DNA of 64,000 bases from Candidatus Moraniibacteriota bacterium (GTDB lineage: Bacteria; Patescibacteriota; Minisyncoccia; Moranbacterales; GCA-2747515): contig JAGLWU010000021.1 of NCBI GenBank assembly GCA_023133275.1, positions 1,341 through 65,340 on the forward strand, given 5' to 3'. The position numbers were made by a program, and so were the translations under genes. Under the pieces are notes generated by a model. That model was not told where the DNA came from, ran no database searches, and worked only from the letters and a program-made list of their open reading frames with translations. Shown in pieces: positions 25,528 through 52,515 of the stretch (its first letter is position 1; the number at the start of each line of letters is the position of its first letter).

Positions 25528-26559
25528 CTAAATTAAATGAGCTTTAATCATCAAACGCCTATCATTCGTACCAAGTGGCCAACAAGTCGTCAACGTCAAA
25601 ACCTGCAATTGAGTATTAGCAAAGATACGCGGATCATCATCATTAACTTCAAGCTTTTCACTCACCTCATATTCATAATTAAAAGTCTTTCCATTTTTTT
25701 GCGTAACCGTAAGCGTAATTTTATCACCAACATTTAAATTATTTAAATTTTGAAAAATAAAATTATAACTTCCTGCTGACCAAGAATAATTACTACTGTG
25801 CCCTGCAATGTAAGTATTTCCACGTTGACCCGGCATCGCTGTTTTCGGATAATGAACAACGCCACCCTCCAAATCTTTTTGCAAAGCATCCTCTGAACCA
25901 TCATTCGATAAAATCACAGGAGCATCAATACCAATTTTTTTAATTTTAATTTCCACTTTTGGACGTACAGTACCCAAAGCCACTGGATCATAACCATTTT
26001 CAATTTCAGTTAAATCATCGTAACCATCACCGTCTGTATCAGCTTTATTTGGATCAGTGCCATGAGCTTTTTCCAAATCATTACTCAAACCATCATTATC
26101 AAAATCATCTTCATTACGATTTTCGTCATCCAATTTTACAGTTAAACTTTCACTAGATTTTTCATCTTTAACTATTTGAGCATCATCTAATTTTCCATCT
26201 CCAGTTGGAGAATTTCCATTAACAATTTCTTCGCCATCTTTATACCCATCGCCGTCAGTGTCGTCGCTAAATGGATTGGTTAAATATAAATATTCTTGTT
26301 CCAAAGTTAATCCATCATTATCTGCATCAGCCTGTGCGTCTTCCATTGAACTAATTGAAATTTGATAACGATCTAACCAATACGGTGAAATACCAAAATT
26401 TTGTTCAGCTAATTTATCCATCAGTTGAGTTGTCGTTATAGTTGTTTTTTTGTCTGTTTTCATCAAATTCTGCATCCGAGTGATTCCGCCTCCGAAAATA
26501 AAATACATTAAACTGAATACTATGATGAAAATTATAATTGTTGGTAAATATTTTTTCAT
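25528..26559 (-). CDS. Sortase-family transpeptidase with N-terminal TM and thrombospondin-type-3-like Ca-binding repeats
   Basis: C-terminal sortase fold with His (YIAGHSS), Cys (LTLTTCWP) and Arg (RRLMIKA). Upstream region carries DADNDGLTLEQEY, DDTDGDGYKDGEEI and DFDNDGLSNDLE...DTDGDGYDDLTEIENGYDP repeats. Confidence 0.75.
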   Translation of the reverse strand: MKKYLPTIIIFIIVFSLMYFIFGGGITRMQNLMKTDKKTTITTTQLMDKLAEQNFGISPYWLDRYQISISSMEDAQADADNDGLTLEQEYLYLTNPFSDDTDGDGYKDGEEIVNGNSPTGDGKLDDAQIVKDEKSSESLTVKLDDENRNEDDFDNDGLSNDLEKAHGTDPNKADTDGDGYDDLTEIENGYDPVALGTVRPKVEIKIKKIGIDAPVILSNDGSEDALQKDLEGGVVHYPKTAMPGQRGNTYIAGHSSNYSWSAGSYNFIFQNLNNLNVGDKITLTVTQKNGKTFNYEYEVSEKLEVNDDDPRIFANTQLQVLTLTTCWPLGTNDRRLMIKAHLI

Positions 26560-26748
26560 TTAAAATAGTTATTGGTTTTTTAATACTAACCGTAAACTAT
26601 AGCATTTTAAATGTTGTTTGTCAATAGGTGTATAATTTTAGTTTCATCTCGCTATCATTATGCTCGAAATACTAATATAAAAAGTTTTTAAGAAATCTGC
26701 TTAACTAAATTACAATTTTTTTGTCAAAGAAAATTTTTAGATTTTTTT

Positions 26749-26930
26749 GTGCTCGTCGCACGGGCTTTTGAGGTTTGCCAATGGCAAACCACTACAGATT
26801 TTTAAACTCCCTCAGACATATCATTCCAGAAAATAACTTTATAATAAAATGGAAAAATTATTTATCCGAAATCTATATTTTAAGATTTAAGAAAATTTAA
26901 AGCATAACATTCTTTCAGAATAACACACTA
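26749..26930. repeat. Mosaic palindromic intergenic repeat element (modules A+F+C+D), copy R1
   Basis: GTGCTCGTCGCACGGGC (26749-26765). Palindrome GGTTTGCCAATGGCAAACC (26772-26790). ATTTATCCGAAATCTATATTTTAAGATTTAAGAAAATTTAAA (a near-identical copy is at 45568-45609). CATTCTTTCAGAATAACAC. Confidence 0.8.
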
Positions 26931-27008
26931 AAAAAATTTTGAAAAATCACAATCACTACCAAATATCTCAAATAAAGAAATTGAAAATAGTTAAGTCAAT
27001 GATCAAAT

Positions 27009-28157
27009 TTATTCCTCTTTTTTAAAAGTCAAAAGAAAAAGCCCAACAATTATTGCTCCCACGAAAATAATCAAAGTCATTGGCAACCAAGAATGTCTTG
27101 CAAAAAATCGATTTTCTTCTTCATCGCAAACATCTCCAATGCCGTCGACATCTTCATCTTTCTGATAACGATTTGGATTATTTGGACAATTGTCATCAGG
27201 ATTCAAAACCCCATCACGATCAAAATCATCACACGCATCTCCCCGATCATTTCCATCAATATCCTTCTGATTTTCATTAGCAATTAAAACGCAATTATCA
27301 ATTTCATCTGAAATACCATCCTCGTCAGAATCCGCTTTTTTGTAAATAGAATTTAAATTAATGGTAACATTATTAATTTTCAAAATATCTTTATTACTTC
27401 GCAAATTTGGCATTTCACCAGTTTCAACTTTTGTATAAATATCCGCATTGTAATAAATACTGTAAGACTTTTCAGAATAAGCTAAAAACCTAACAGATTT
27501 ATTAACTTGCTGTAAATCAGTCGGATTAAAACTTATTTCTCTAATTCGCAAAGGTTGCGAGTACTCTAATTCAATCTTAAAATCTTTTGCAAATACTTTT
27601 GGAAAATTAATTGTACTAGATTTCATCGGAGATTTAGCAAAAATAATTTTTTCAGCTTGACTTTCCTTGTCGTAAATAGAAATTTTAATCGTCTTTGGTA
27701 AAGCAACATATTTGTCAAAATTAAAAGTCAATGAAAAAGTTGAGACATTCTTGTCCGCAGAAATATTTATAGAAACTTTACTAATTTGTCCATCATCAGA
27801 AACAGAATATTCTTCAAAAGTATCTTTATTCTCATCCACTAATTGTGAATCATATTTACTTTTAAAATTAACTTTTTTAACTTCGCTTTTGGAAATAACT
27901 AAACTTGGCACAAATGAATTATCTGAATCATCCACTGTTGCCACGCTATTTAAAATTTCTTTTTCAAAATTTATCGGAACTTCTACCACTGTTGGCACTT
28001 TGATATTTTGTTTTGAAACACTTATTACAGATTGAAAAGATTCTAACGAATTTTCCTCCACTTTTTTATCATTAACATCACTTTTTTTATTTTCAGCTAA
28101 AACCAATGAACTGAAACTAAAAAATATCAACAAAAAACCTAAAAAAATTTTATTCAT
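27009..28157 (-). CDS. Secreted thrombospondin type 3 repeat (Ca-binding) protein with C-terminal LPMTL + hydrophobic + KKEE anchor
   Basis: Signal peptide. C-terminal DSDEDGISDEIDNC...DIDGNDRGDACDDFDRDGVLNPDDNCPNNPNRYQKDEDVDGIGDVCD (TSP3 DxDxDGxxDxxDNC repeats). Ends WLPMTLIIFVGAIIVGLFLLTFKKEE. Confidence 0.65.
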   Translation of the reverse strand: MNKIFLGFLLIFFSFSSLVLAENKKSDVNDKKVEENSLESFQSVISVSKQNIKVPTVVEVPINFEKEILNSVATVDDSDNSFVPSLVISKSEVKKVNFKSKYDSQLVDENKDTFEEYSVSDDGQISKVSINISADKNVSTFSLTFNFDKYVALPKTIKISIYDKESQAEKIIFAKSPMKSSTINFPKVFAKDFKIELEYSQPLRIREISFNPTDLQQVNKSVRFLAYSEKSYSIYYNADIYTKVETGEMPNLRSNKDILKINNVTINLNSIYKKADSDEDGISDEIDNCVLIANENQKDIDGNDRGDACDDFDRDGVLNPDDNCPNNPNRYQKDEDVDGIGDVCDEEENRFFARHSWLPMTLIIFVGAIIVGLFLLTFKKEE

Positions 28158-45400: not shown

Positions 45401-45429
45401 ATTTTATTTTATAAATTAAAAATTAAATT

Positions 45430-45640
45430 GTGCTCGCCGCACGGGCTTTTCTGAACAAGGGGTCATAACCCCTTGTTTAACCCCTACAAAATTATACGAC
45501 CCCCCGACCTGTCATTCCGAAAAATATATTTTCTTTCAGAGCGTAGTGATGAACTAGAAAATAATTTATCCGGAATCTATACTTTAAGATTAAAGAAAAT
45601 TTAAAATACAATACACTTCCTAAATTCCGGATAATTTTTT
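45430..45640. repeat. Mosaic repeat element (modules A+B1+C+D), copy R5
   Basis: GTGCTCGCCGCACGGGC. TTCTGAACAAGGGGTCATAACCCCTTGTTTAACC. CCTGTCATTCCGAAAAATA. ATTTATCCGGAATCTATACTTTAAGATTAAAGAAAATTTAAA. ATTCCGGATAA is the inverse of TTATCCGGAAT. Confidence 0.8.
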
Positions 45641-45879
45641 AAGTTTTTCGTAGAAAAATTTAAAAAATTTCCAAAGTGACAAGAGGGAAAGCATCAGAAA
45701 AACTTATTAGGATTTCTGTCTGCCTGTTGCAATAGGTAGACTTCACTTCTTTATTTTTTCTTACGAAAAAATAAATCCGCCTATCTGCCAACAAAGGCAA
45801 GTTTAGAATGACATGAAGTTTCAAAGTTTTAAATAAAATTTAACAAAATCAATAACAAAAAACAACCTTTCCAAAAAAT

Positions 45880-47790
45880 CTACTCCTTTTCAACTTGCTT
45901 AATCATATCACGAACCCCTGCAAAATCAATTTCCTTTTTAGAATTAGAAAACTTTTTCGGCTCCATGTGTTGCATCTGAGAAAAATTCAAAGGCTTATCT
46001 TTTGAAACATAAACATTTTCCTTAACTTCCTCATTTTGATTCAAATTATCGCCAGTATTTTCCCCTTGCCCTTTTCTTGAATCACCTTTTTTAACATCAT
46101 CATTCTGATCTTGATTTTTAGTTTCTTTAACTTTAGCAACTGCCCTTTGATAATCTTTCAAACAATCCTTACAAAAAACTGGACGCTTTCCATCTGGTTT
46201 AAACGGAATTTCAATTGCCTCATCACAAGTATCACAATTAACTGGATAAAATTGTCGTTTAGGTTTTTGGACTTCAGTTTTTCTCTCTTCTCGAAGATCT
46301 CTTCGCTTTTCTGAAAAATTAGAATTTGAATTATCATTTGGAGTTTGTCGCGAAACCACTTTAGGCTTTTCATAAACTTTTCGTTCTGAAACTTGAGGCT
46401 TTGAAAATTTTGGAGTAAATTTCTTTGGTTTTGAATTTCTGGAAAAATCTCTGGTCTCTTTTACTCTTGAGCTTGAATATTGTCGATCTTCTCGTGAACT
46501 CGCCAAATCATCTTCTGATAACATCCCACTACTACGAGCAATTTTTTCCTCGACTTCTTTTCTAGGAGTTGCATATTTTTCTCGAGAAAGTTGAATAATC
46601 TGTTCCGTGCTATCTGATTCCAATCTTTCAATTGGTGGCAAAGTCGTCGCACTGAAAGCATCTCCAGCAATTCCATCAATCATCAATTTAAGATAAATAT
46701 TATACTTCGGCAAATTCACAATATCATTCATCATAAAAACTGGTTCAAATTCTTTTTCTAAAAATTCTGCATCAAACGCTCCGACCCGAAAAGAAACAAT
46801 CGTTCCCGCATTACCAAAAATAGCATCTCGAACCGTTTCATCCAACTGAGTAATATACTGATTCGCTAAAATTAAATTCAAGCGATATTTACGAGCCTCT
46901 GAAAGAATGTTCGCAAAAGATTCTGTCGCAAAGTTTTGAAACTCATCAACGTAAAGATAAAAATCTTTTCGATCTTCCTCAGGAGTGTCTACCCGACCCA
47001 TCGCTGCCAACTGAATTTTAGTAATAATCATCGCTCCAATCAACGCACTGTTATCCTCCCCAATCCGTCCTTTTGACAAATTCATAATGAGAATTTTTTT
47101 GTCATCCATTATTGTTCGCAAATCAAAAGCTGATTTATTCTGACCAACAACATTTCGAATTACTGGACTGGTCAAAAACTGTCCAACTTTATTTTGAATT
47201 GGAGAAATAACTTCTTGTAAAACACGCTCATTCCATTGCGGAAATTCGTCTACCCAAAAAGAACGTACTACTGGATCAGTGATTTTACTCGATACTCTTT
47301 TCCGATAATTTTTATCTACTAAAATACGCATCACTCCCAATAAATTACTTCCAGGATATTCTAAAAGTGCTAAAAGTGCATTTCGTAAAATATATTCCAA
47401 ACGAGGACCCCATGAATCTGCCCACAATTTTTGAAAAACTCCAATTAAGCCTGATGCAACTAATGGACGAAATTCTGGAGCGACTTTTTCCATCACGTTA
47501 AAAGCTAGTGGAAAATCTTGATCAGCGGGATTGAAATAAATTACATCATCTAATCGATCGCTCGGAATCATACTGATTAATTTTTCTGCTGTATCTCCAT
47601 GTGGATCGACAAAAGCTACTCCGTGTCCGTTGCGAATATCTTGAATTGCCATGTTTTCTAAAAGGTTGGTTTTACCCATACCTGTTTTTCCGATTGCGTA
47701 AAAATGTCGACGTCGATCATCGGTTTTTATTCCAAAGGTTGCTTCTTTGTTTCTAAAATTTGTTTTTGCAAATGCGATTACTTCTGACAT
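45880..47790 (-). CDS. VirD4/TraG/TraD-like (T4CP-like) P-loop ATPase lacking an N-terminal TM, with charged tail and C-terminal zinc ribbon
   Basis: Walker A AIGKTGMGKT. Walker B LYVDEFQNF. T4CP-type ANQYITQLDETVRDAIFGNAGTIVSFRVGAFD (cf. VirD4 AQSxxQLxxxYG...FLRxxD). C-terminal CDTC...x17...CKDC. Confidence 0.6.
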   Translation of the reverse strand: MSEVIAFAKTNFRNKEATFGIKTDDRRRHFYAIGKTGMGKTNLLENMAIQDIRNGHGVAFVDPHGDTAEKLISMIPSDRLDDVIYFNPADQDFPLAFNVMEKVAPEFRPLVASGLIGVFQKLWADSWGPRLEYILRNALLALLEYPGSNLLGVMRILVDKNYRKRVSSKITDPVVRSFWVDEFPQWNERVLQEVISPIQNKVGQFLTSPVIRNVVGQNKSAFDLRTIMDDKKILIMNLSKGRIGEDNSALIGAMIITKIQLAAMGRVDTPEEDRKDFYLYVDEFQNFATESFANILSEARKYRLNLILANQYITQLDETVRDAIFGNAGTIVSFRVGAFDAEFLEKEFEPVFMMNDIVNLPKYNIYLKLMIDGIAGDAFSATTLPPIERLESDSTEQIIQLSREKYATPRKEVEEKIARSSGMLSEDDLASSREDRQYSSSRVKETRDFSRNSKPKKFTPKFSKPQVSERKVYEKPKVVSRQTPNDNSNSNFSEKRRDLREERKTEVQKPKRQFYPVNCDTCDEAIEIPFKPDGKRPVFCKDCLKDYQRAVAKVKETKNQDQNDDVKKGDSRKGQGENTGDNLNQNEEVKENVYVSKDKPLNFSQMQHMEPKKFSNSKKEIDFAGVRDMIKQVEKE

Positions 47791-47799
47791 ATTTTTGTT

Positions 47800-48231
47800 T
47801 TAACTAAGGATAAAATTATTTAATAAATAAATTTCTAATTGTTTTATTAAAAACCCCAAACAAATCATTAAAGACAAAATAAAAGAATAAAAATAAGATT
47901 TACAGAAAAAATGTTTTAAATTTTTATCTTTATAGTCAACAAATAATAAAGATAGTGAACCAAACAAAACAATAGGAGATAAATAAAAAAATATTACAAA
48001 AAATATAAGCCCTAAATCCAAATAATTTATGAATTTTTCAATTGCAAAATTATTACAATACATATAATTACTATCGCTTCCAAATTCTAAATAACATCTT
48101 CCTTTTTCAAATGCAAAATTAAAAATAAATAAACTACCTAATGATAAAAGTAATCCTGTAGTATAAAAAATACTAATTATATTTAAAAGTCTCTTGGTAT
48201 TTTTTTTCTTAAGTCTTTCTTTAAATTTCAT
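47800..48231 (-). CDS. Small polytopic membrane protein (partner of the ATPase)
   Basis: 143 aa, 4 TM. Gene ends 9 nt before the ATPase start. Confidence 0.45.
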   Translation of the reverse strand: MKFKERLKKKNTKRLLNIISIFYTTGLLLSLGSLFIFNFAFEKGRCYLEFGSDSNYMYCNNFAIEKFINYLDLGLIFFVIFFYLSPIVLFGSLSLLFVDYKDKNLKHFFCKSYFYSFILSLMICLGFLIKQLEIYLLNNFILS

Positions 48232-48274
48232 AAAACAAAAATTTTAAAATTAATCAAGTAATTATACCCCAAAA

Positions 48275-49546
48275 TTAAGTCGTCGGCAAGTTAGTCGGGG
48301 CACCACCACGGCGAGCAGAAGAAAACTGAACACTCGGCGACACAATCGACATATCTGGCAAATGAAAAACCGTCGCCAACTCAGTCGTACTCAAATGAAA
48401 AGTTACCCCCGAATCATCCCGATCACGATACCGCTCCAAAATCCGCCTCATTCGAGAACCTTTCCGAGCATCAACATTCACATAATCCGCATAAGTCTTA
48501 CTTCTATCTACAGGAATAAATTGATTAGTATGATTATCTGAAAATTCTTTAAGCATCGCACTTGCTCCTGCCACATTAATCATTGAAAAATTTTCCTTAC
48601 GTCCAATGCAAAGTATTCTTGCCTTTACTGAAAACATCGACTTCGCAATATTTTCCTCCAAAGACGCAAGAGTTTGTTTTTCACCCGGAGTCAATCTAAA
48701 TTCAAGAGGTTGTTCATCAGTCGCTGGAGATTCTAAAGAAGAAAATTCCACTGGACCAAAAAGAGCTGGGAAAATATTTTTAACAATTTCCTTAACGTCA
48801 TAAAAAAAACGATCAAAAAAACCAAACTTTTCATTATTCTTTCCAAGAAATTCATCAACTGTTGTTTTCCCCCATTCATCAAACCATTGTGGTCTATCTG
48901 GCTGAACTACGTATTGTAACCAAAGATGCTGATTCGGTCCTAAAGTACTAATAATTTCCATATAATTTGCCAAAGGATCAATCATTTTCCCCGTAACATC
49001 CTCATCAAAATATTTATAAGTTTTAATTGGATAAGCATCATCTTTTAATAACGTCCAATCTGCTCCCCAAAGTGTCCACTCATCATTCGGAATTAAAGCA
49101 GGAATATTACCAGTATAATCATCCACCTGAAAAATTTCAACTCCTTGATATTGAGCGTACAAAGCACTTTCCACTAAATCCCGAAAAAAAGCTGGCGTAC
49201 GAATATAAAAATGAGCCGCTCCTTCAGACCCCACAAGTTCCAAACTAAAATAAGGATTCATTTTTCCTAAAGCATATTGAGCAAATTTATTCATTCCAGC
49301 ATCAGTCGCCGCCAATGCGTTAAAAAAACCTTCCATTATTTTTGGACTTTTTTCGACATCTTGAGGCGGAATAATTTCTAAAAGAATATCATTCTGCGTC
49401 ATCAACCAACCAATCGCTGCATGTCGTCCCCACAAATTTTTAAAAAGAAACCATGAAAACGTTGGTAAAATTAAAAACCAAACTTTTCCAAAAATTAAAA
49501 ATATTCGAATAAAAAAATCAAAAAATGACGATAGCTCGCTAAACAT
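48275..49546 (-). CDS. Membrane-anchored hypothetical protein (first gene of the ATPase trio)
   Basis: 423 aa. Two N-terminal TM, then a soluble domain. Same strand and tight spacing with the next two genes. Confidence 0.45.
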   Translation of the reverse strand: MFSELSSFFDFFIRIFLIFGKVWFLILPTFSWFLFKNLWGRHAAIGWLMTQNDILLEIIPPQDVEKSPKIMEGFFNALAATDAGMNKFAQYALGKMNPYFSLELVGSEGAAHFYIRTPAFFRDLVESALYAQYQGVEIFQVDDYTGNIPALIPNDEWTLWGADWTLLKDDAYPIKTYKYFDEDVTGKMIDPLANYMEIISTLGPNQHLWLQYVVQPDRPQWFDEWGKTTVDEFLGKNNEKFGFFDRFFYDVKEIVKNIFPALFGPVEFSSLESPATDEQPLEFRLTPGEKQTLASLEENIAKSMFSVKARILCIGRKENFSMINVAGASAMLKEFSDNHTNQFIPVDRSKTYADYVNVDARKGSRMRRILERYRDRDDSGVTFHLSTTELATVFHLPDMSIVSPSVQFSSARRGGAPTNLPTT

Positions 49547-49751
49547 CTATTTTTATTTTAATTTAACTTAAATCTAAATTTATTATACAACATTTTTAAC
49601 AATTAGTAGAGCCACAATTTGTAAAAACGTTTTACCAAAATGTTTCTACTTGTCTATTTTCAAAAAAACCTTATAATTAAATTATTCGTAATTTATATAA
49701 ATTTAAAAGTTACGAATTTAAAAGTTATAAAATAATTATTTTAAAAAAATT

Positions 49752-51213: not shown

Positions 51214-52515
51214 CTATAATTTATCTTTATAATTTTTTGACCAATACATAACGTCATTTGCATAATCCACACATACCTTACGAGAAAGACGTGACCCACA
51301 ATAATATTTTCGTGCTGCATCGTATTCTCCACTTTTACTTGTAGCTCCATCATTTGCTAATTTTATTGCCATCGCCATTACACCATCAGTAAGACTCCAA
51401 GGATCTGCTGGGGAATGACCTGTGTATTTTTCAATTTTTAATTCATACCCTTGCCATGTTGTTGGTATAAATTGAGCCACTCCCATTGCTCCCCCATAAT
51501 ATTTTCCCTCTACACCACAAGAAACTTTTTTTTCTTTTGATTTATAATCTAAATCAGACATAATTCTTTTAAAAACAGGTATATCATAAGAATGCATATT
51601 AGCTTTTTTATAAGTACATCCACCAGTATAACGTCCCAGATCTGTTTCCTGAATTAATTCACCAAAAAGAAAAGCTTTGCGAACACCTGTTTTTTTACTA
51701 GCTATTTCAACTGCCTCCACAATATCCCCCGCTTCAACTGACTCACCCAACAAACCAGAAAGATCTGATTCAACAGCCGCCAATTTTGCATTCAATTCTG
51801 AAATTGTAGCATTTTTAGAAATTATTTGAGCTTGCGTTTGATTTTTTTCAGACACTAAAGAATTTTCTTGTTGCTTTTGAGACAATAAAAGTGTCTCTTT
51901 CTCTTTTTTTACATCTTCAATAGATTCCTTTTTATCTTGTGTAACACGCTTCGTTTCATTTATTTCATCAACTAAATTTAAAACTTCATTCCTCAAATTA
52001 TCAAAACTATCAGAAGAACCTAAAAACTTAGAATTTCCTTCATTCTTAAAAGCTAAATAAACTGCCGATTCATTCTGTTGATAATAAAAATTTCTCAGCG
52101 CCGAAGCTAATGCCTCTTGATAAAGTTTATTTTTTTGATTAAGTAATTCAATTTGTTTGTTGTGTCGATTAATTTCGTGTTCTTTATTTTTAATTTCATC
52201 TTTGGTCTGTTCTAAAGATTGTTGAGTAGAATTTAAAGATTGTTGAACGATGTTTAAATCTTTTTGTAAGTTATTTTTTTGATTTTCTTCTTTTTCAATT
52301 TTATCTTCAATTTTATCTTTTTTTTCTTCAAGCTCTTCTTCTTTTTCTTCCTCCTCTTCTTTTTTCTTCTCAAGTTCTTCTTTTTGTTCTTCAGTCAATT
52401 CTGTTTCTTCGTCATCATTTCCAGCTAATGAAAAATGACTTACATTCAAAAAAGTGATTGAAAATATCAAAAGTAAAAATAAAATATATTTTGTTTTTTT
52501 GTTTAAGTTTTTCAT
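51214..52515 (-). CDS. Secreted coiled-coil protein with C-terminal lytic transglycosylase (SLT_2/MltB-like) domain
   Basis: Signal peptide. About 250 aa E/K/Q-rich coiled coil. C-terminal GGAMGVAQFIPTTW (MltB AMGxxQFMPxT signature). Confidence 0.6.
   Translation of the reverse strand: MKNLNKKTKYILFLLLIFSITFLNVSHFSLAGNDDEETELTEEQKEELEKKKEEEEEKEEELEEKKDKIEDKIEKEENQKNNLQKDLNIVQQSLNSTQQSLEQTKDEIKNKEHEINRHNKQIELLNQKNKLYQEALASALRNFYYQQNESAVYLAFKNEGNSKFLGSSDSFDNLRNEVLNLVDEINETKRVTQDKKESIEDVKKEKETLLLSQKQQENSLVSEKNQTQAQIISKNATISELNAKLAAVESDLSGLLGESVEAGDIVEAVEIASKKTGVRKAFLFGELIQETDLGRYTGGCTYKKANMHSYDIPVFKRIMSDLDYKSKEKKVSCGVEGKYYGGAMGVAQFIPTTWQGYELKIEKYTGHSPADPWSLTDGVMAMAIKLANDGATSKSGEYDAARKYYCGSRLSRKVCVDYANDVMYWSKNYKDKL

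What the first reader, a model, noticed from the sequence alone, without database searches (positions are those of the whole stretch)
45880..49546. VirD4/TraG-like ATPase with C-terminal zinc ribbon in a three-gene module with two membrane proteins
The 636-aa protein has Walker A/B and the T4CP-type Q..QL...FR..D segment (ANQYITQLDETVRDAIFGNAGTIVSFRVGAFD). It lacks the N-terminal TM anchor of true coupling proteins. It ends in a long charged tail and a CxxC-x17-CxxC zinc ribbon. It is tightly linked on the same strand to a 423-aa membrane-anchored protein and a 143-aa 4-TM protein. No relaxase, VirB4 or pilin is present in the window. This could be a minimal DNA or protein translocation device, or a divergent conjugation or competence remnant. 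That would be of interest in an episymbiotic lineage.
Basis: partly seen in the sequence, partly recalled or inferred. Interest (0 to 1): 0.55.

Follow-up and report, generated by a model that had tools for sequence, protein, structure and literature searches.

The report
Split coupling-protein ATPase of Patescibacteria
This is a chromosomal, very strongly conserved two-gene version of a conjugation-type "coupling" motor protein found across the ultra-small Patescibacteria; its membrane-anchored half folds like the front part of a different secretion ATPase (VirB4), and its function is still unknown.

Summary
The three ORFs and the sequence features are all present as described. The 636-aa protein is a TrwB/VirD4-type (T4CP-like) P-loop ATPase with a CxxC-x17-CxxC zinc ribbon in a charged tail. 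It has no TM segment.

DUF8128 and the ATPase form one evolutionary unit:
- They are fused in a single protein in Bacillus phages G and SPO1 and in actinobacterial and haloarchaeal plasmids.
- In Patescibacteria they are adjacent on the same strand, in 65/80 genomes searched from the ATPase side and about 70/75 metagenome contigs searched from the DUF8128 side.

The 143-aa membrane ORF is not part of the conserved unit. Among 5.8 billion proteins it has one homologue.

The third gene that is actually conserved elsewhere encodes a sigma-region-4/HARE-HTH DNA-binding protein, found upstream in about 95% of loci. It is absent from this window.

No VirB4, relaxase or pilin gene lies nearby, either here or in 160 related loci.

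The ATPase core is at least 59% identical across candidate phyla. That makes it a core gene, not a remnant.

VirD4-like homologues in Patescibacteria are already published; the split architecture and the synteny were not found in the literature searched.

The parts
48275..49546 (-). 423-aa DUF8128 (PF26449) protein. It is the membrane-anchored subunit, with a cytoplasmic domain that has a VirB4-N-terminal-domain-like fold.
49442..49528 (-). N-terminal hydrophobic helix of the DUF8128 protein (aa about 7-35). Predicted single TM anchor with N-out/C-in topology, judged from the basic residues that follow it.
   Evidence: Kyte-Doolittle maximum 1.96. The model shows a continuous helix over aa 2-50. 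A WW..P motif is conserved in the family consensus. The topology is inferred.
47800..48231 (-). 143-aa ORF with 3-4 TM segments, inserted between the two conserved genes. It is a lineage-specific gene and not part of the conserved module.
   Evidence: ORF and hydrophobic segments. No Pfam, PHROG or PADLOC hit and only a sub-threshold NCBIfam one. Two hits among 5.8e9 proteins: itself and P0390 at 63% identity. P0390 occupies the same slot in L093. dN/dS 0.45. Zero homologues in 80 related loci.
45880..47790 (-). 636-aa TrwB/VirD4-type (T4CP-like) P-loop ATPase. It has an all-alpha insertion, a disordered charged tail, a zinc ribbon and a conserved C-terminal motif.
47668..47691 (-). Walker A motif GKTGMGKT (aa 34-41).
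   Evidence: Invariant in 49 homologues.
46939..46962 (-). Walker B motif FYLYVDEF (aa 277-284).
   Evidence: D282 and E283 are invariant. Aligns with the Walker B region of TrwB.
46264..46476 (-). Charged, low-complexity linker (aa about 439-509), predicted disordered.
   Evidence: pLDDT below 50. Composition. Length and sequence vary among homologues.
46153..46257 (-). CxxC-x17-CxxC zinc ribbon (aa 512-546; PF23477 and TIGR04272).
   Evidence: pLDDT 86-92, with a beta-hairpin followed by a helix. The four Cys are invariant in the 49-sequence alignment. The motif is present in 60 of 75 complete homologues in the 80 loci. Zinc binding by this domain type has been shown for Methanosarcina small proteins (PMC12704099).
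45883..45993 (-). Conserved extreme C-terminal motif (aa about 600-636; consensus ..PxSLSQxQHxxPKKF....VDLxxVRxLI).
   Evidence: Alignment consensus. A helix at aa 623-635 in the model. Function unknown.
49547..49751 (.). 205-nt AT-rich divergent intergenic region between the DUF8128 gene (-) and the UDP-glucose dehydrogenase gene (+). It presumably carries the operon promoter. In most relatives a sigma-r4/HARE-HTH gene sits here instead.
   Evidence: Promoter-like sites in the region are not more frequent than in shuffled sequence. Synteny comparison.

Best explanation
The locus encodes the Patescibacteria-wide chromosomal form of a split type-IV-coupling-protein-like ATPase.

Shown:
- Gene 1 (DUF8128) provides a single N-terminal TM helix and a cytoplasmic domain with the fold of the VirB4 N-terminal domain.
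- Gene 3 provides a TrwB/VirD4-type motor (Walker A and B, all-alpha insertion) and a long tail carrying a zinc ribbon.
- The two genes are halves of one ancestral protein. They are fused in phage and plasmid homologues. One of these fusions sits at the coupling-protein position of a Gram-positive-type conjugation cluster.

Inferred:
- DUF8128 docks onto the conserved but, on its own, disordered N-terminus of the ATPase and tethers a hexameric ring to the cytoplasmic face of the membrane. This would resemble the two tiers of VirB4.
- The ring uses ATP to receive and move a substrate, most likely DNA or another nucleic acid or nucleoprotein.
- The zinc-ribbon tail selects the substrate. In most relatives the co-transcribed sigma-region-4/HARE-HTH DNA-binding protein may help, in an arrangement that recalls the accessory DNA-binding gene trwA next to trwB in R388.
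- Output most plausibly goes to the orphan Patescibacteria T4SS, whose own gene cluster lacks a coupling protein.

The 143-aa membrane ORF is a recent, lineage-specific insertion in a slot that also takes other small membrane ORFs.

I put confidence in the identity and architecture at about 0.9. I put confidence in the role as a nucleic-acid-handling coupling motor that feeds the T4SS at about 0.45.
For: T4CP-like motor:
- Pfam TrwB_AAD_bind and TraG-D_C above cut-off.
- phmmer against the PDB finds TrwB and DotL.
- hhalign against TrwB gives probability 96% over TrwB residues 119-394, against only the P-loop for VirB4/TrwK.
- The model has an all-helical insertion at aa about 105-230 with pLDDT 79-94.

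DUF8128 as a VirB4 N-terminal domain:
- Model pLDDT 89.9.
- The top 14 Foldseek hits are all TrwK chains.

One evolutionary unit:
- phrog_5156 covers both proteins.
- The DUF8128 HMM hits the N-terminal halves of ATPase-containing fusion proteins: phage G gp156 (2.8e-22), SPO1 gp27.4, the Embleya 812-aa protein and the Haladaptatus 1193-aa protein.
- The Embleya fusion lies between a 643-aa gene annotated only as an ATP-binding protein and a replication-relaxation gene, alongside PrgI and NlpC/P60 genes.

Co-conservation:
- DUF8128 lies immediately upstream in 65/80 genomes, with a median gap of about 10 nt.
- In the reciprocal search, the ATPase lies downstream of DUF8128 in 69/75 metagenome loci, plus one more with an inserted ORF.

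Core-gene status:
- The homologue search saturated at 8000 hits.
- At least 593 species genomes carry a relative.
- ATPase core identity is 59% or more across the 81 genomes.
- dN/dS is 0.11-0.15 for the two genes.

Link to the T4SS:
- The Southlakia T4SS cluster lacks a recognisable coupling protein and relaxase (PMC10633639).
- VirD4-like homologues occur in 2,918 of 3,035 Patescibacteria genomes (PMC12102498).

DNA-binding partner: a sigma-r4/HARE-HTH gene lies upstream in 61/63 and 69/73 loci, with domain assignments.
Against: - No T4SS gene lies within this 64-kb window or within about 8 kb of the gene in 160 related loci.
- The literature finds only 148 of 5,713 homologues near virB4. 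Homologues occur in more genomes (2,918) than VirB4 does (2,417). The Southlakia homologue is reported as non-essential although the T4SS is essential (PMC12102498). I did not show that the Southlakia gene is orthologous to this family.
- No relaxase is present.
- The extreme conservation is unlike typical T4SS parts.
- The interaction between DUF8128 and the ATPase, hexamer formation, the substrate and the direction of transport are all inferred and not tested.
- The ATPase model is mediocre: mean pLDDT 64, with aa 1-38 and 311-383 below 50.
- The similarity of DUF8128 to VirB4 is structural only. hhalign against TrwK and against TrsD finds nothing.
- The sigma-like partner is absent from this window.
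Confidence: 0.5

Rival explanations
1. Exapted housekeeping motor that works independently of any T4SS. In this reading the membrane-tethered T4CP-like hexamer acts on the cell's own chromosome or on transcription complexes. Possible roles are DNA segregation or clearance at division (as FtsK or SpoIIIE do), or membrane tethering and remodelling of RNA polymerase-DNA complexes through the sigma-r4/delta-like partner and the zinc ribbon.
For: - The gene is near-universal and extremely conserved.
- Only 148 of 5,713 homologues lie near virB4, and homologues are found in more genomes than VirB4 (96% against 80%). The authors themselves raise exaptation (PMC12102498).
- The conserved partner carries two RNA-polymerase-type domains: sigma region 4 and a delta-subunit-like HARE-HTH.
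- Chromosomal housekeeping neighbours include dcw-cluster genes and DivIC a few kb away in L090 and L091.
Against: - FtsK is mentioned for the saccharibacterium TM7x in the literature (titles and hits; not read in detail). A replacement role is therefore not needed, at least in that organism.
- The proximity to division genes is not consistent across loci.
- The fused homologue with the clearest gene context sits in a conjugation-type cluster.
Confidence: 0.28
2. One reading: a self-sufficient minimal three-gene translocation device, in which the ATPase, the 423-aa anchor and the 143-aa 4-TM protein together form their own membrane channel.
For: - The three genes are tightly packed on one strand.
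- Small membrane ORFs recur in the same slot: a 160-aa ORF in L082, a 143-aa ORF in L093 and a 262-aa 2-TM ORF in L114.
- A separate clade of 13 loci pairs the ATPase with a conserved 1-TM protein of about 90-115 aa.
Against: - The 143-aa protein has one homologue in 5.8e9 sequences and none in 80 related genomes.
- It shows no detectable similarity to the L082 ORF in the same slot.
- Its dN/dS is 0.45.
- In most genomes the two conserved genes abut with gaps of 0-30 nt, which leaves no room for a third gene.
Confidence: 0.05
3. A decaying remnant of a conjugative or mobile element, or of a competence system.
For: - Relatives of the fused form are carried by plasmids and phages.
- There is no relaxase or T4SS nearby.
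Against: - The reading frames are intact and the catalytic motifs are invariant.
- dN/dS is 0.11-0.15.
- ATPase core identity is 59% or more across candidate phyla.
- The flanking genes are housekeeping genes, with no integrase, transposase or tRNA gene nearby.
- Base composition is the same as in the rest of the window.
Confidence: 0.02
4. The ATPase component of an anti-phage defence system of the MADS (mad8) or Dnd/Dpt (DptH) type.
For: - PADLOC mad8 hit with E 2.3e-17.
- A core-only homologue at 44.6% identity on a Sulfitobacter plasmid sits among transposase and recombinase genes.
Against: - There are no other mad or dnd genes, methyltransferases or nucleases next to it, either here or in related loci.
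- Defence genes are patchy and fast-evolving. This gene is near-universal and among the most conserved.
- The partners, DUF8128 and the sigma-like protein, are not known defence components (no PADLOC hit for DUF8128).
Confidence: 0.03

Closest known systems
Type IV coupling proteins of the VirD4/TrwB/TraD/DotL family (T4CP)
   Same: The motor is homologous. The alignment with TrwB runs through Walker A, the all-alpha insertion, Walker B and the Q..QL motif. The best structural matches are DotL, TrwB and Cagbeta. There is a long C-terminal extension, as in TraD and DotL. A DNA-binding-protein gene lies upstream in relatives, which recalls trwA-trwB in R388 (one search shows that gene order; the TrwA identity is from my own knowledge).
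   Different: - There is no N-terminal TM domain in the same polypeptide.
- The membrane part is a separate DUF8128 protein with a VirB4-like N-terminal-domain fold and one TM helix.
- The tail is a zinc ribbon.
- No relaxase or T4SS genes are linked.
- The gene is chromosomal, near-universal in a phylum and extremely conserved.
VirB4 (TrwK, R388), and its naturally split form TrsD + TrsE in pSK41/pGO1
   Different: - The ATPase half is T4CP-like and not VirB4-like by sequence.
- DUF8128 shows no sequence-level similarity to TrwK or TrsD.
- There are no adjacent VirB3, VirB6 or VirB8 genes.
Fused DUF8128-ATPase proteins: phage G gp156, SPO1 gp27.4, the Embleya plasmid 812-aa 'type IV secretory system conjugative DNA transfer family protein', the Haladaptatus plasmid 1193-aa protein (phrog_5156)
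   Same: The same two modules occur in the same order. The Embleya protein sits in a PrgI / ATP-binding-protein / replication-relaxation / NlpC-P60 conjugation-type cluster.
   Different: - These are single polypeptides and are carried by mobile elements.
- Identity is only 24-33%.
- No zinc ribbon was detected in those scanned with Pfam (phage G gp156 and SPO1 gp27.4).
- None has a characterised function.
The 'T4CP homologues to VirD4' reported in Patescibacteria by Quinonero-Coronel et al. 2025 (PMC12102498)
   Same: This is very probably the same gene family. The paper reports 5,713 homologues in 2,918 of 3,035 genomes, mostly far from virB4, and raises exaptation as a possibility.
   Different: The main-text passages I retrieved from that paper by keyword (coupling protein, TrsD, zinc, CxxC) do not describe the DUF8128 partner, the split or VirB4-like architecture, the zinc ribbon or the sigma-r4/HARE-HTH synteny. 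I did not check its supplementary tables.
FtsK/SpoIIIE and HerA translocases
   Same: All belong to the same FtsK-HerA P-loop superfamily of hexameric translocases. Like FtsK, this protein is tethered to the membrane.

Membership tests
Type IV coupling protein (VirD4/TrwB/TraG/TraD) | P-loop nucleotide-binding domain homologous to TrwB, with Walker A and Walker B | tested here: met
   TrwB_AAD_bind 33.3 bits (cut-off 20.5) and TraG-D_C 26.5 bits (cut-off 22). hhalign against TrwB: probability 96%, E 2.8e-9. Motifs invariant.
Type IV coupling protein (VirD4/TrwB/TraG/TraD) | All-alpha domain inserted in the nucleotide-binding domain | tested here: met
   The AF2 model shows eight helices and no strands over aa 105-229, with pLDDT 79-94. 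The hhalign alignment runs through TrwB 119-394, which contains its all-alpha domain (the domain limits are from my own knowledge). This is model-level evidence only.
Type IV coupling protein (VirD4/TrwB/TraG/TraD) | N-terminal transmembrane domain in the same polypeptide | tested here: not met
   No hydrophobic segment in the 636-aa protein. A TM helix is present on the separate DUF8128 protein, which is fused to the ATPase in other lineages.
Type IV coupling protein (VirD4/TrwB/TraG/TraD) | Genetic association with a T4SS (VirB4 etc.) and/or a relaxase | tested here: not met
   None found in the 64-kb window, in the 80 genome loci searched for VirB4-like proteins, or among the Pfam-annotated neighbours of three further loci. 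The rest of the genome could not be examined.
Type IV coupling protein (VirD4/TrwB/TraG/TraD) | Couples a substrate to a T4SS channel (the function) | not testable with these tools
   This needs genetics or biochemistry.
VirB4 ATPase | VirB4-type N-terminal domain | tested here: met
VirB4 ATPase | VirB4-type C-terminal ATPase by sequence (CagE_TrbE_VirB / AAA_10 / P-loop_TraG) | tested here: not met
VirB4 ATPase | Encoded with VirB3, VirB6 or VirB8-type membrane components | tested here: not met
   The neighbours are a Na/Ca exchanger, UDP-glucose dehydrogenase and LysM/LytR_C genes, among others. The 143-aa ORF has no PrgI or VirB3 hit.
DUF8128 (PF26449) | Match to the family profile | tested here: met
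   The precomputed Pfam assignment for the identical protein P0121 and for all 120 listed homologues is PF26449. It is named DUF8128. The model is not in the local Pfam copy, which explains the empty result.
CxxC-x17-CxxC zinc ribbon (TIGR04272 / PF23477 zf_Tbcl_2) | Four Cys in the spacing CxxC-x17-CxxC, and a profile match above cut-off | tested here: met
   45.8 bits (cut-off 36) and 44 bits (cut-off 27). The Cys are invariant. Zinc binding by this protein was not tested.
FtsK/SpoIIIE | FtsK alpha/beta motor, gamma (KOPS-binding) domain and a multi-pass N-terminal domain | tested here: not met
HerA-type helicase/translocase | HerA central domain above threshold, and a NurA or other nuclease partner | tested here: not met
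MADS / Dnd-Dpt defence systems | The ATPase is accompanied by the other system genes (methyltransferase, nuclease, other mad/dpt genes) | tested here: not met
   Only the mad8 profile hits, with E 2.3e-17. The two partner proteins have no PADLOC hit, and the neighbours are housekeeping genes.

The most novel reading that the evidence does not exclude
The pair, together with the sigma-region-4/HARE-HTH protein that accompanies it in about 95% of relatives, could be a core nucleic-acid translocase of Patescibacteria that works independently of the T4SS. In this reading a coupling-protein motor retains a VirB4-like N-terminal domain, which would make it an evolutionary intermediate between VirB4 and VirD4. 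The motor would be guided by polymerase- or DNA-binding modules, namely sigma region 4, a delta-like HTH and a TFIIB-like zinc ribbon. It would take up, hand over or membrane-tether DNA or RNA. That could tie into the nucleotide-scavenging or RNA-feeding lifestyle recently proposed for this phylum (bioRxiv 10.64898/2026.06.21.733656).
Probability: 0.12. Interest if true: 0.9.

Novelty: new variant of a known kind. Interest (0 to 1): 0.6.

Why it matters
Patescibacteria make up a large share of bacterial diversity. They depend on hosts for nucleotides and carry an essential but unexplained T4SS whose gene cluster lacks a coupling protein.

A coupling-protein-like motor that is near-universal and among the best-conserved proteins of the phylum is an obvious candidate for a central, lineage-defining process. 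That process could be substrate delivery to the T4SS, nucleic-acid acquisition, or a new chromosome- or transcription-linked role.

Three findings here give concrete, testable handles:
- The membrane anchor is a separate protein with a VirB4-like N-terminal domain.
- The same two modules are fused in phage and plasmid homologues.
- A sigma-r4/HARE-HTH protein is co-conserved with the pair.

These suggest the complex to reconstitute, the partners to test and the domains to mutate.

The chimeric architecture also bears on how coupling proteins and VirB4 diverged from a common ancestor.

For this particular window the locus is an atypical copy. The sigma-like gene is missing and an orphan membrane ORF is inserted.

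Tried and rejected
- **DUF8128 in local profile libraries.** Pfam, NCBIfam and PADLOC scans of the 423-aa and 143-aa proteins gave nothing significant; the only PHROG hit was phrog_5156 for the 423-aa protein. The identity of the 423-aa protein came from precomputed Pfam hits.
- **Sequence search of the PDB with the 423-aa protein.** No hit.
- **Sequence-level link of DUF8128 to VirB4 or TrsD.** hhalign against TrwK and against pSK41 TrsD was negative. The VirB4 similarity therefore rests on predicted structure only.
- **Literature.** No paper mentions DUF8128. The CxxC-x17-CxxC literature shows only zinc binding in archaeal small proteins.
- **afdb50 fold search.** Not available.
- **R388 under BR000038.** Not found. 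NC_028464 was used instead.
- **143-aa ORF against the 160-aa ORF in the same slot of L082.** Not significant, E 0.04.
- **Sigma-like gene in the window.** hmmsearch and tblastn found nothing better than E 0.12.
- **Zinc-ribbon motif in other proteins of the loci.** None found.
- **Promoter and terminator scan.** Promoter-like sites were no more frequent than in shuffled sequence, and no clear terminator was found.
- **Rfam and tRNA scans of the window.** Empty.
- **One script timed out** and was rerun.
- **Readings considered and rejected:** defence system, mobile-element remnant, FtsK or HerA membership. The reasons are given under the rival explanations and the membership test.

Full report
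**1. Observation**

The minus strand carries three consecutive ORFs at the coordinates given:
- 423 aa at 48275-49546
- 143 aa at 47800-48231
- 636 aa at 45880-47790

They are separated by 43 nt and 9 nt.

The 636-aa protein has these features:
- Walker A GKTGMGKT at aa 34-41
- Walker B FYLYVDEF at aa 277-284
- the quoted Q..QL...FR..D segment at aa 309-340
- no hydrophobic segment
- a 206-aa tail rich in K, E, S, D and R
- CDTC-x17-CKDC at aa 519-543

TrwB_AAD_bind, TraG-D_C and zf_Tbcl_2 (Pfam) and TIGR04272, the CxxC-x17-CxxC model, all score above their cut-offs.

The 423-aa protein has a single N-terminal hydrophobic helix. The 143-aa protein has 3-4 hydrophobic segments.

The window is ordinary chromosome at about 30% GC. 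Its genes include SecDF, TyrRS, PGK, DnaJ, L25, glycosyltransferases and a Na/Ca exchanger. There is no tRNA, no Rfam hit, no integrase, no relaxase, no VirB4 and no pilin gene. The identical ATPase sequence is on record from a Candidatus Moranbacteria MAG.

**2. The ATPase**

By sequence the ATPase is a coupling-protein (T4CP) relative and not a VirB4.
- phmmer against the PDB finds TrwB and DotL.
- A profile of the family aligns with R388 TrwB over 264 columns (TrwB residues 119-394), with probability 96% and E 2.8e-9.
- Against R388 TrwK/VirB4 and pSK41 TrsE, only the P-loop aligns.

The AF2 model is mediocre overall, with mean pLDDT 64. The N-terminal 38 residues and aa 311-383 fall below 50. 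The alignment was shallow, which probably explains this. The core from aa 40 to 300 is confident and contains an all-helical insertion at aa about 105-230, in the position of the all-alpha domain of TrwB. The zinc ribbon is also confident.

**3. The 423-aa protein**

The identical protein and all listed homologues carry Pfam PF26449, which is DUF8128. No paper in the searchable library mentions this family.

An AF2 model built on 63 diverse homologues is confident, with pLDDT 89.9 and pTM 0.84. It shows one long N-terminal helix (aa 2-50, which includes the TM segment) followed by alpha/beta domains.

Foldseek independently ranks 14 TrwK chains first, with probability 0.94-1.00.

At the sequence level nothing links DUF8128 to TrwK or to TrsD. 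The homology claim therefore rests on predicted structure.

**4. The two genes are one unit**

Fusion evidence:
- PHROG family phrog_5156 (824 positions) matches the 423-aa protein with its N-terminal part and the ATPase with its C-terminal part.
- An HMM of DUF8128 hits the N-terminal halves of proteins whose C-terminal halves match the ATPase profile. The E-values are 2.8e-22 for phage G gp156 (825 aa), 4e-9 for SPO1 gp27.4 (906 aa), 1.7e-8 for an 812-aa protein on an Embleya plasmid and 4.6e-8 for a 1193-aa Haladaptatus plasmid protein.
- In small B. subtilis plasmids the split falls elsewhere, inside DUF8128.
- The Embleya fusion sits in a cluster with the order PrgI, XF1762, ATP-binding protein, the fusion, replication-relaxation protein, NlpC/P60. 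That is a Gram-positive-type conjugation cluster, and the fusion occupies the coupling-protein position.

Synteny evidence:
In the best 80, all of them Patescibacteria from several candidate phyla, a DUF8128 gene lies immediately upstream on the same strand in 65. The median gap is about 10 nt and the genes often overlap.
- The 13 exceptions that have sequence upstream form a monophyletic clade. There the ATPase follows NrdD, NrdG and a conserved protein of about 90-115 aa with one TM segment.
- Starting from DUF8128 in independent metagenome contigs (29-50% identity), the ATPase follows in 69 of 75 loci with room downstream. In one further locus it follows after an inserted 262-aa 2-TM ORF.

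**5. The 143-aa ORF is not part of the conserved unit**

- It has two hits among 5.8 billion proteins: itself and a 63%-identical 143-aa protein. That second protein occupies the same slot in a close relative.
- It has no homologue in the 80 genomes.
- A further relative, L082, has a 160-aa hydrophobic ORF in the slot with no significant similarity to it. Others, L081 and L083, have none.
- Its dN/dS against its only homologue is 0.45. The flanking genes give 0.11 and 0.15.

It is probably a real gene, but it is lineage-specific.

**6. The gene that is conserved as a third partner is missing here**

In 61 of 63 genome loci and 69 of 73 metagenome loci with room upstream, a protein of about 350 aa lies directly upstream of DUF8128 on the same strand. 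It has an N-terminal sigma-70 region 4 and a HARE-HTH resembling the N-terminal domain of the RNA polymerase delta subunit.

Neither an HMM of this protein nor tblastn finds it in the 64-kb window, and tblastn finds none in the close relatives L081-L083. In this lineage a UDP-glucose dehydrogenase gene on the opposite strand lies upstream instead.

**7. Conservation and what is already published**

The homologue search saturated, with 8000 of 8000 scored candidates significant and the top 120 at 55-100% identity. Pairwise identity of the ATPase core never falls below 59% among the 81 genomes. DUF8128 is less conserved, at 30-66% identity.

Quinonero-Coronel et al. 2025 (PMC12102498) report the following:
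- 5,713 VirD4-like homologues in 2,918 of 3,035 Patescibacteria genomes
- only 148 of them near virB4
- VirB4 in 2,417 genomes
- the Southlakia homologue reported as non-essential, and exaptation raised as a possibility

Wang et al. 2023 note that the essential Southlakia T4SS cluster lacks a recognisable coupling protein and relaxase.

The existence of orphan T4CP-like genes in this phylum is therefore known. I did not find the DUF8128 partner, the VirB4-like fold, the fusions, the zinc ribbon or the sigma-like synteny described. I did not check the paper's supplementary tables.

**8. Mechanism**

Shown:
- a T4CP-type motor
- a VirB4-NTD-like, single-pass membrane partner that is the other half of the same ancestral protein
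- a zinc-ribbon tail
- tight operonic coupling
- strong purifying selection

Inferred:
- DUF8128 has N-out/C-in topology, judged from the basic residues after the helix.
- It binds the highly conserved N-terminus of the ATPase, which is disordered in isolation, and tethers a hexameric ring under the membrane in a two-tier arrangement like VirB4.
- ATP hydrolysis drives receipt or translocation of a substrate chosen by the tail and, in most species, by the sigma-r4/HARE-HTH protein.

I consider DNA or another nucleic acid or nucleoprotein the most likely substrate. The reasons are the family's known function, the DNA-binding partner (an arrangement that recalls trwA-trwB in R388) and the zinc ribbon. 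I consider the orphan Patescibacteria T4SS the most likely exit or entry route, with a probability of about 0.45.

A T4SS-independent housekeeping role is a serious rival at about 0.28. It is favoured by the lack of linkage to virB4, the wider distribution than VirB4, the reported non-essentiality in Southlakia and the polymerase-type domains of the partner.

The remaining readings have little support. These are the remnant, the defence system and the self-sufficient three-gene device.

**9. Verdict**

The locus is a new variant of a known kind: a split, chromosomally fixed coupling-protein-like ATPase with a VirB4-like membrane subunit. It is a member of a gene family already noticed in Patescibacteria.

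This window holds an atypical copy, because the sigma-like gene is lost from the operon and an orphan membrane ORF has been inserted.

I score interest at 0.6. The family is likely central to patescibacterial biology, and its architecture is unexpected. Its presence was already published, however, and its function is still inferred.

Noticed in passing
L001:185-1231, L090:7615-8676, L091:7380-8423, L092:7635-8693 (absent from the window): A protein of about 350 aa with sigma-70 region 4 and a HARE-HTH resembling the RNA polymerase delta subunit. It lies directly upstream of DUF8128 in about 95% of related loci (61/63 and 69/73). It is missing from this window and from its closest relatives.
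   Followed up: yes
L030, L031, L036, L041, L044, L048, L052, L054, L058, L061, L066, L069, L074 (e.g. L054:4670-9914): A monophyletic clade of 13 ATPases with no adjacent DUF8128. Where enough upstream sequence is present, they follow NrdD (anaerobic ribonucleotide reductase) and NrdG, and in 12 of the 13 also a conserved protein of about 90-115 aa with one TM segment (motif ..IKKYIxWQ...IPIILxFIYLPP..). The linkage to nucleotide-reduction genes is unexplained.
   Followed up: partly
L084:1196-5338 (Bacillus phage G gp155-gp156); L085:2744-5464 (SPO1 gp27.4): Large Bacillus phages encode the fused DUF8128-ATPase protein. In phage G it lies directly after a VirB4-like ATPase (P-loop_TraG/AAA_10). 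In SPO1 it lies about 3 kb from the gene for the middle-gene sigma factor gp28. Its function in phages is unknown.
   Followed up: partly
L086:5935-7122 (Sulfitobacter mediterraneus plasmid NZ_CP081110.1): A 395-aa core-only homologue (no DUF8128, no tail). At 44.6% identity it is far closer to the patescibacterial ATPase than any other plasmid hit. It sits among transposase and recombinase genes, so transfer between lineages is possible.
   Followed up: no
L087:4991-7626 (B. subtilis 24.7-kb plasmid CP025942.1): Here the same unit is split at a different point. A 171-aa ORF carries the first part of DUF8128. The following 696-aa 'ATPase' carries the rest of DUF8128 plus the motor.
   Followed up: partly
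L114:6077-6865; L082:5515-5997; L093:5001-5432; window 47800-48231: The junction between the DUF8128 gene and the ATPase gene repeatedly holds unrelated small membrane-protein ORFs (262 aa with 2 TM, 160 aa, 143 aa), each in a different lineage.
   Followed up: partly
window 45401-45879: A 479-nt stretch without a convincing ORF between the ATPase stop and the Na/Ca-exchanger start. It contains two GC-rich hairpins at about 45428-45480, including a perfect 9-bp stem (AACAAGGGG...CCCCTTGTT). Relatives carry a NUDIX gene or a 177-aa gene at this position (L082, L093).
   Followed up: no
window 51214-52515 (-): A 433-aa protein with an N-terminal hydrophobic segment, a long E/K-rich coiled-coil-like region and a C-terminal part containing GVAQFIPTTW. 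To my eye that motif resembles a lytic-transglycosylase motif. There was no Pfam hit at E up to 0.001, and this was not checked further.
   Followed up: no
window 2256-24575: A cluster of five PMT_2-type (dolichyl-phosphate-mannose-type) glycosyltransferase-like membrane proteins, interleaved with GH28 and beta-helix proteins. A local strand switch and GC-skew reversal occur at about 18.5-22.5 kb.
   Followed up: no
window 25528-28157 (-): A sortase fused to bacterial TSP3 repeats lies next to a thrombospondin-type-3-repeat protein. This may be a surface-protein anchoring pair.
   Followed up: no
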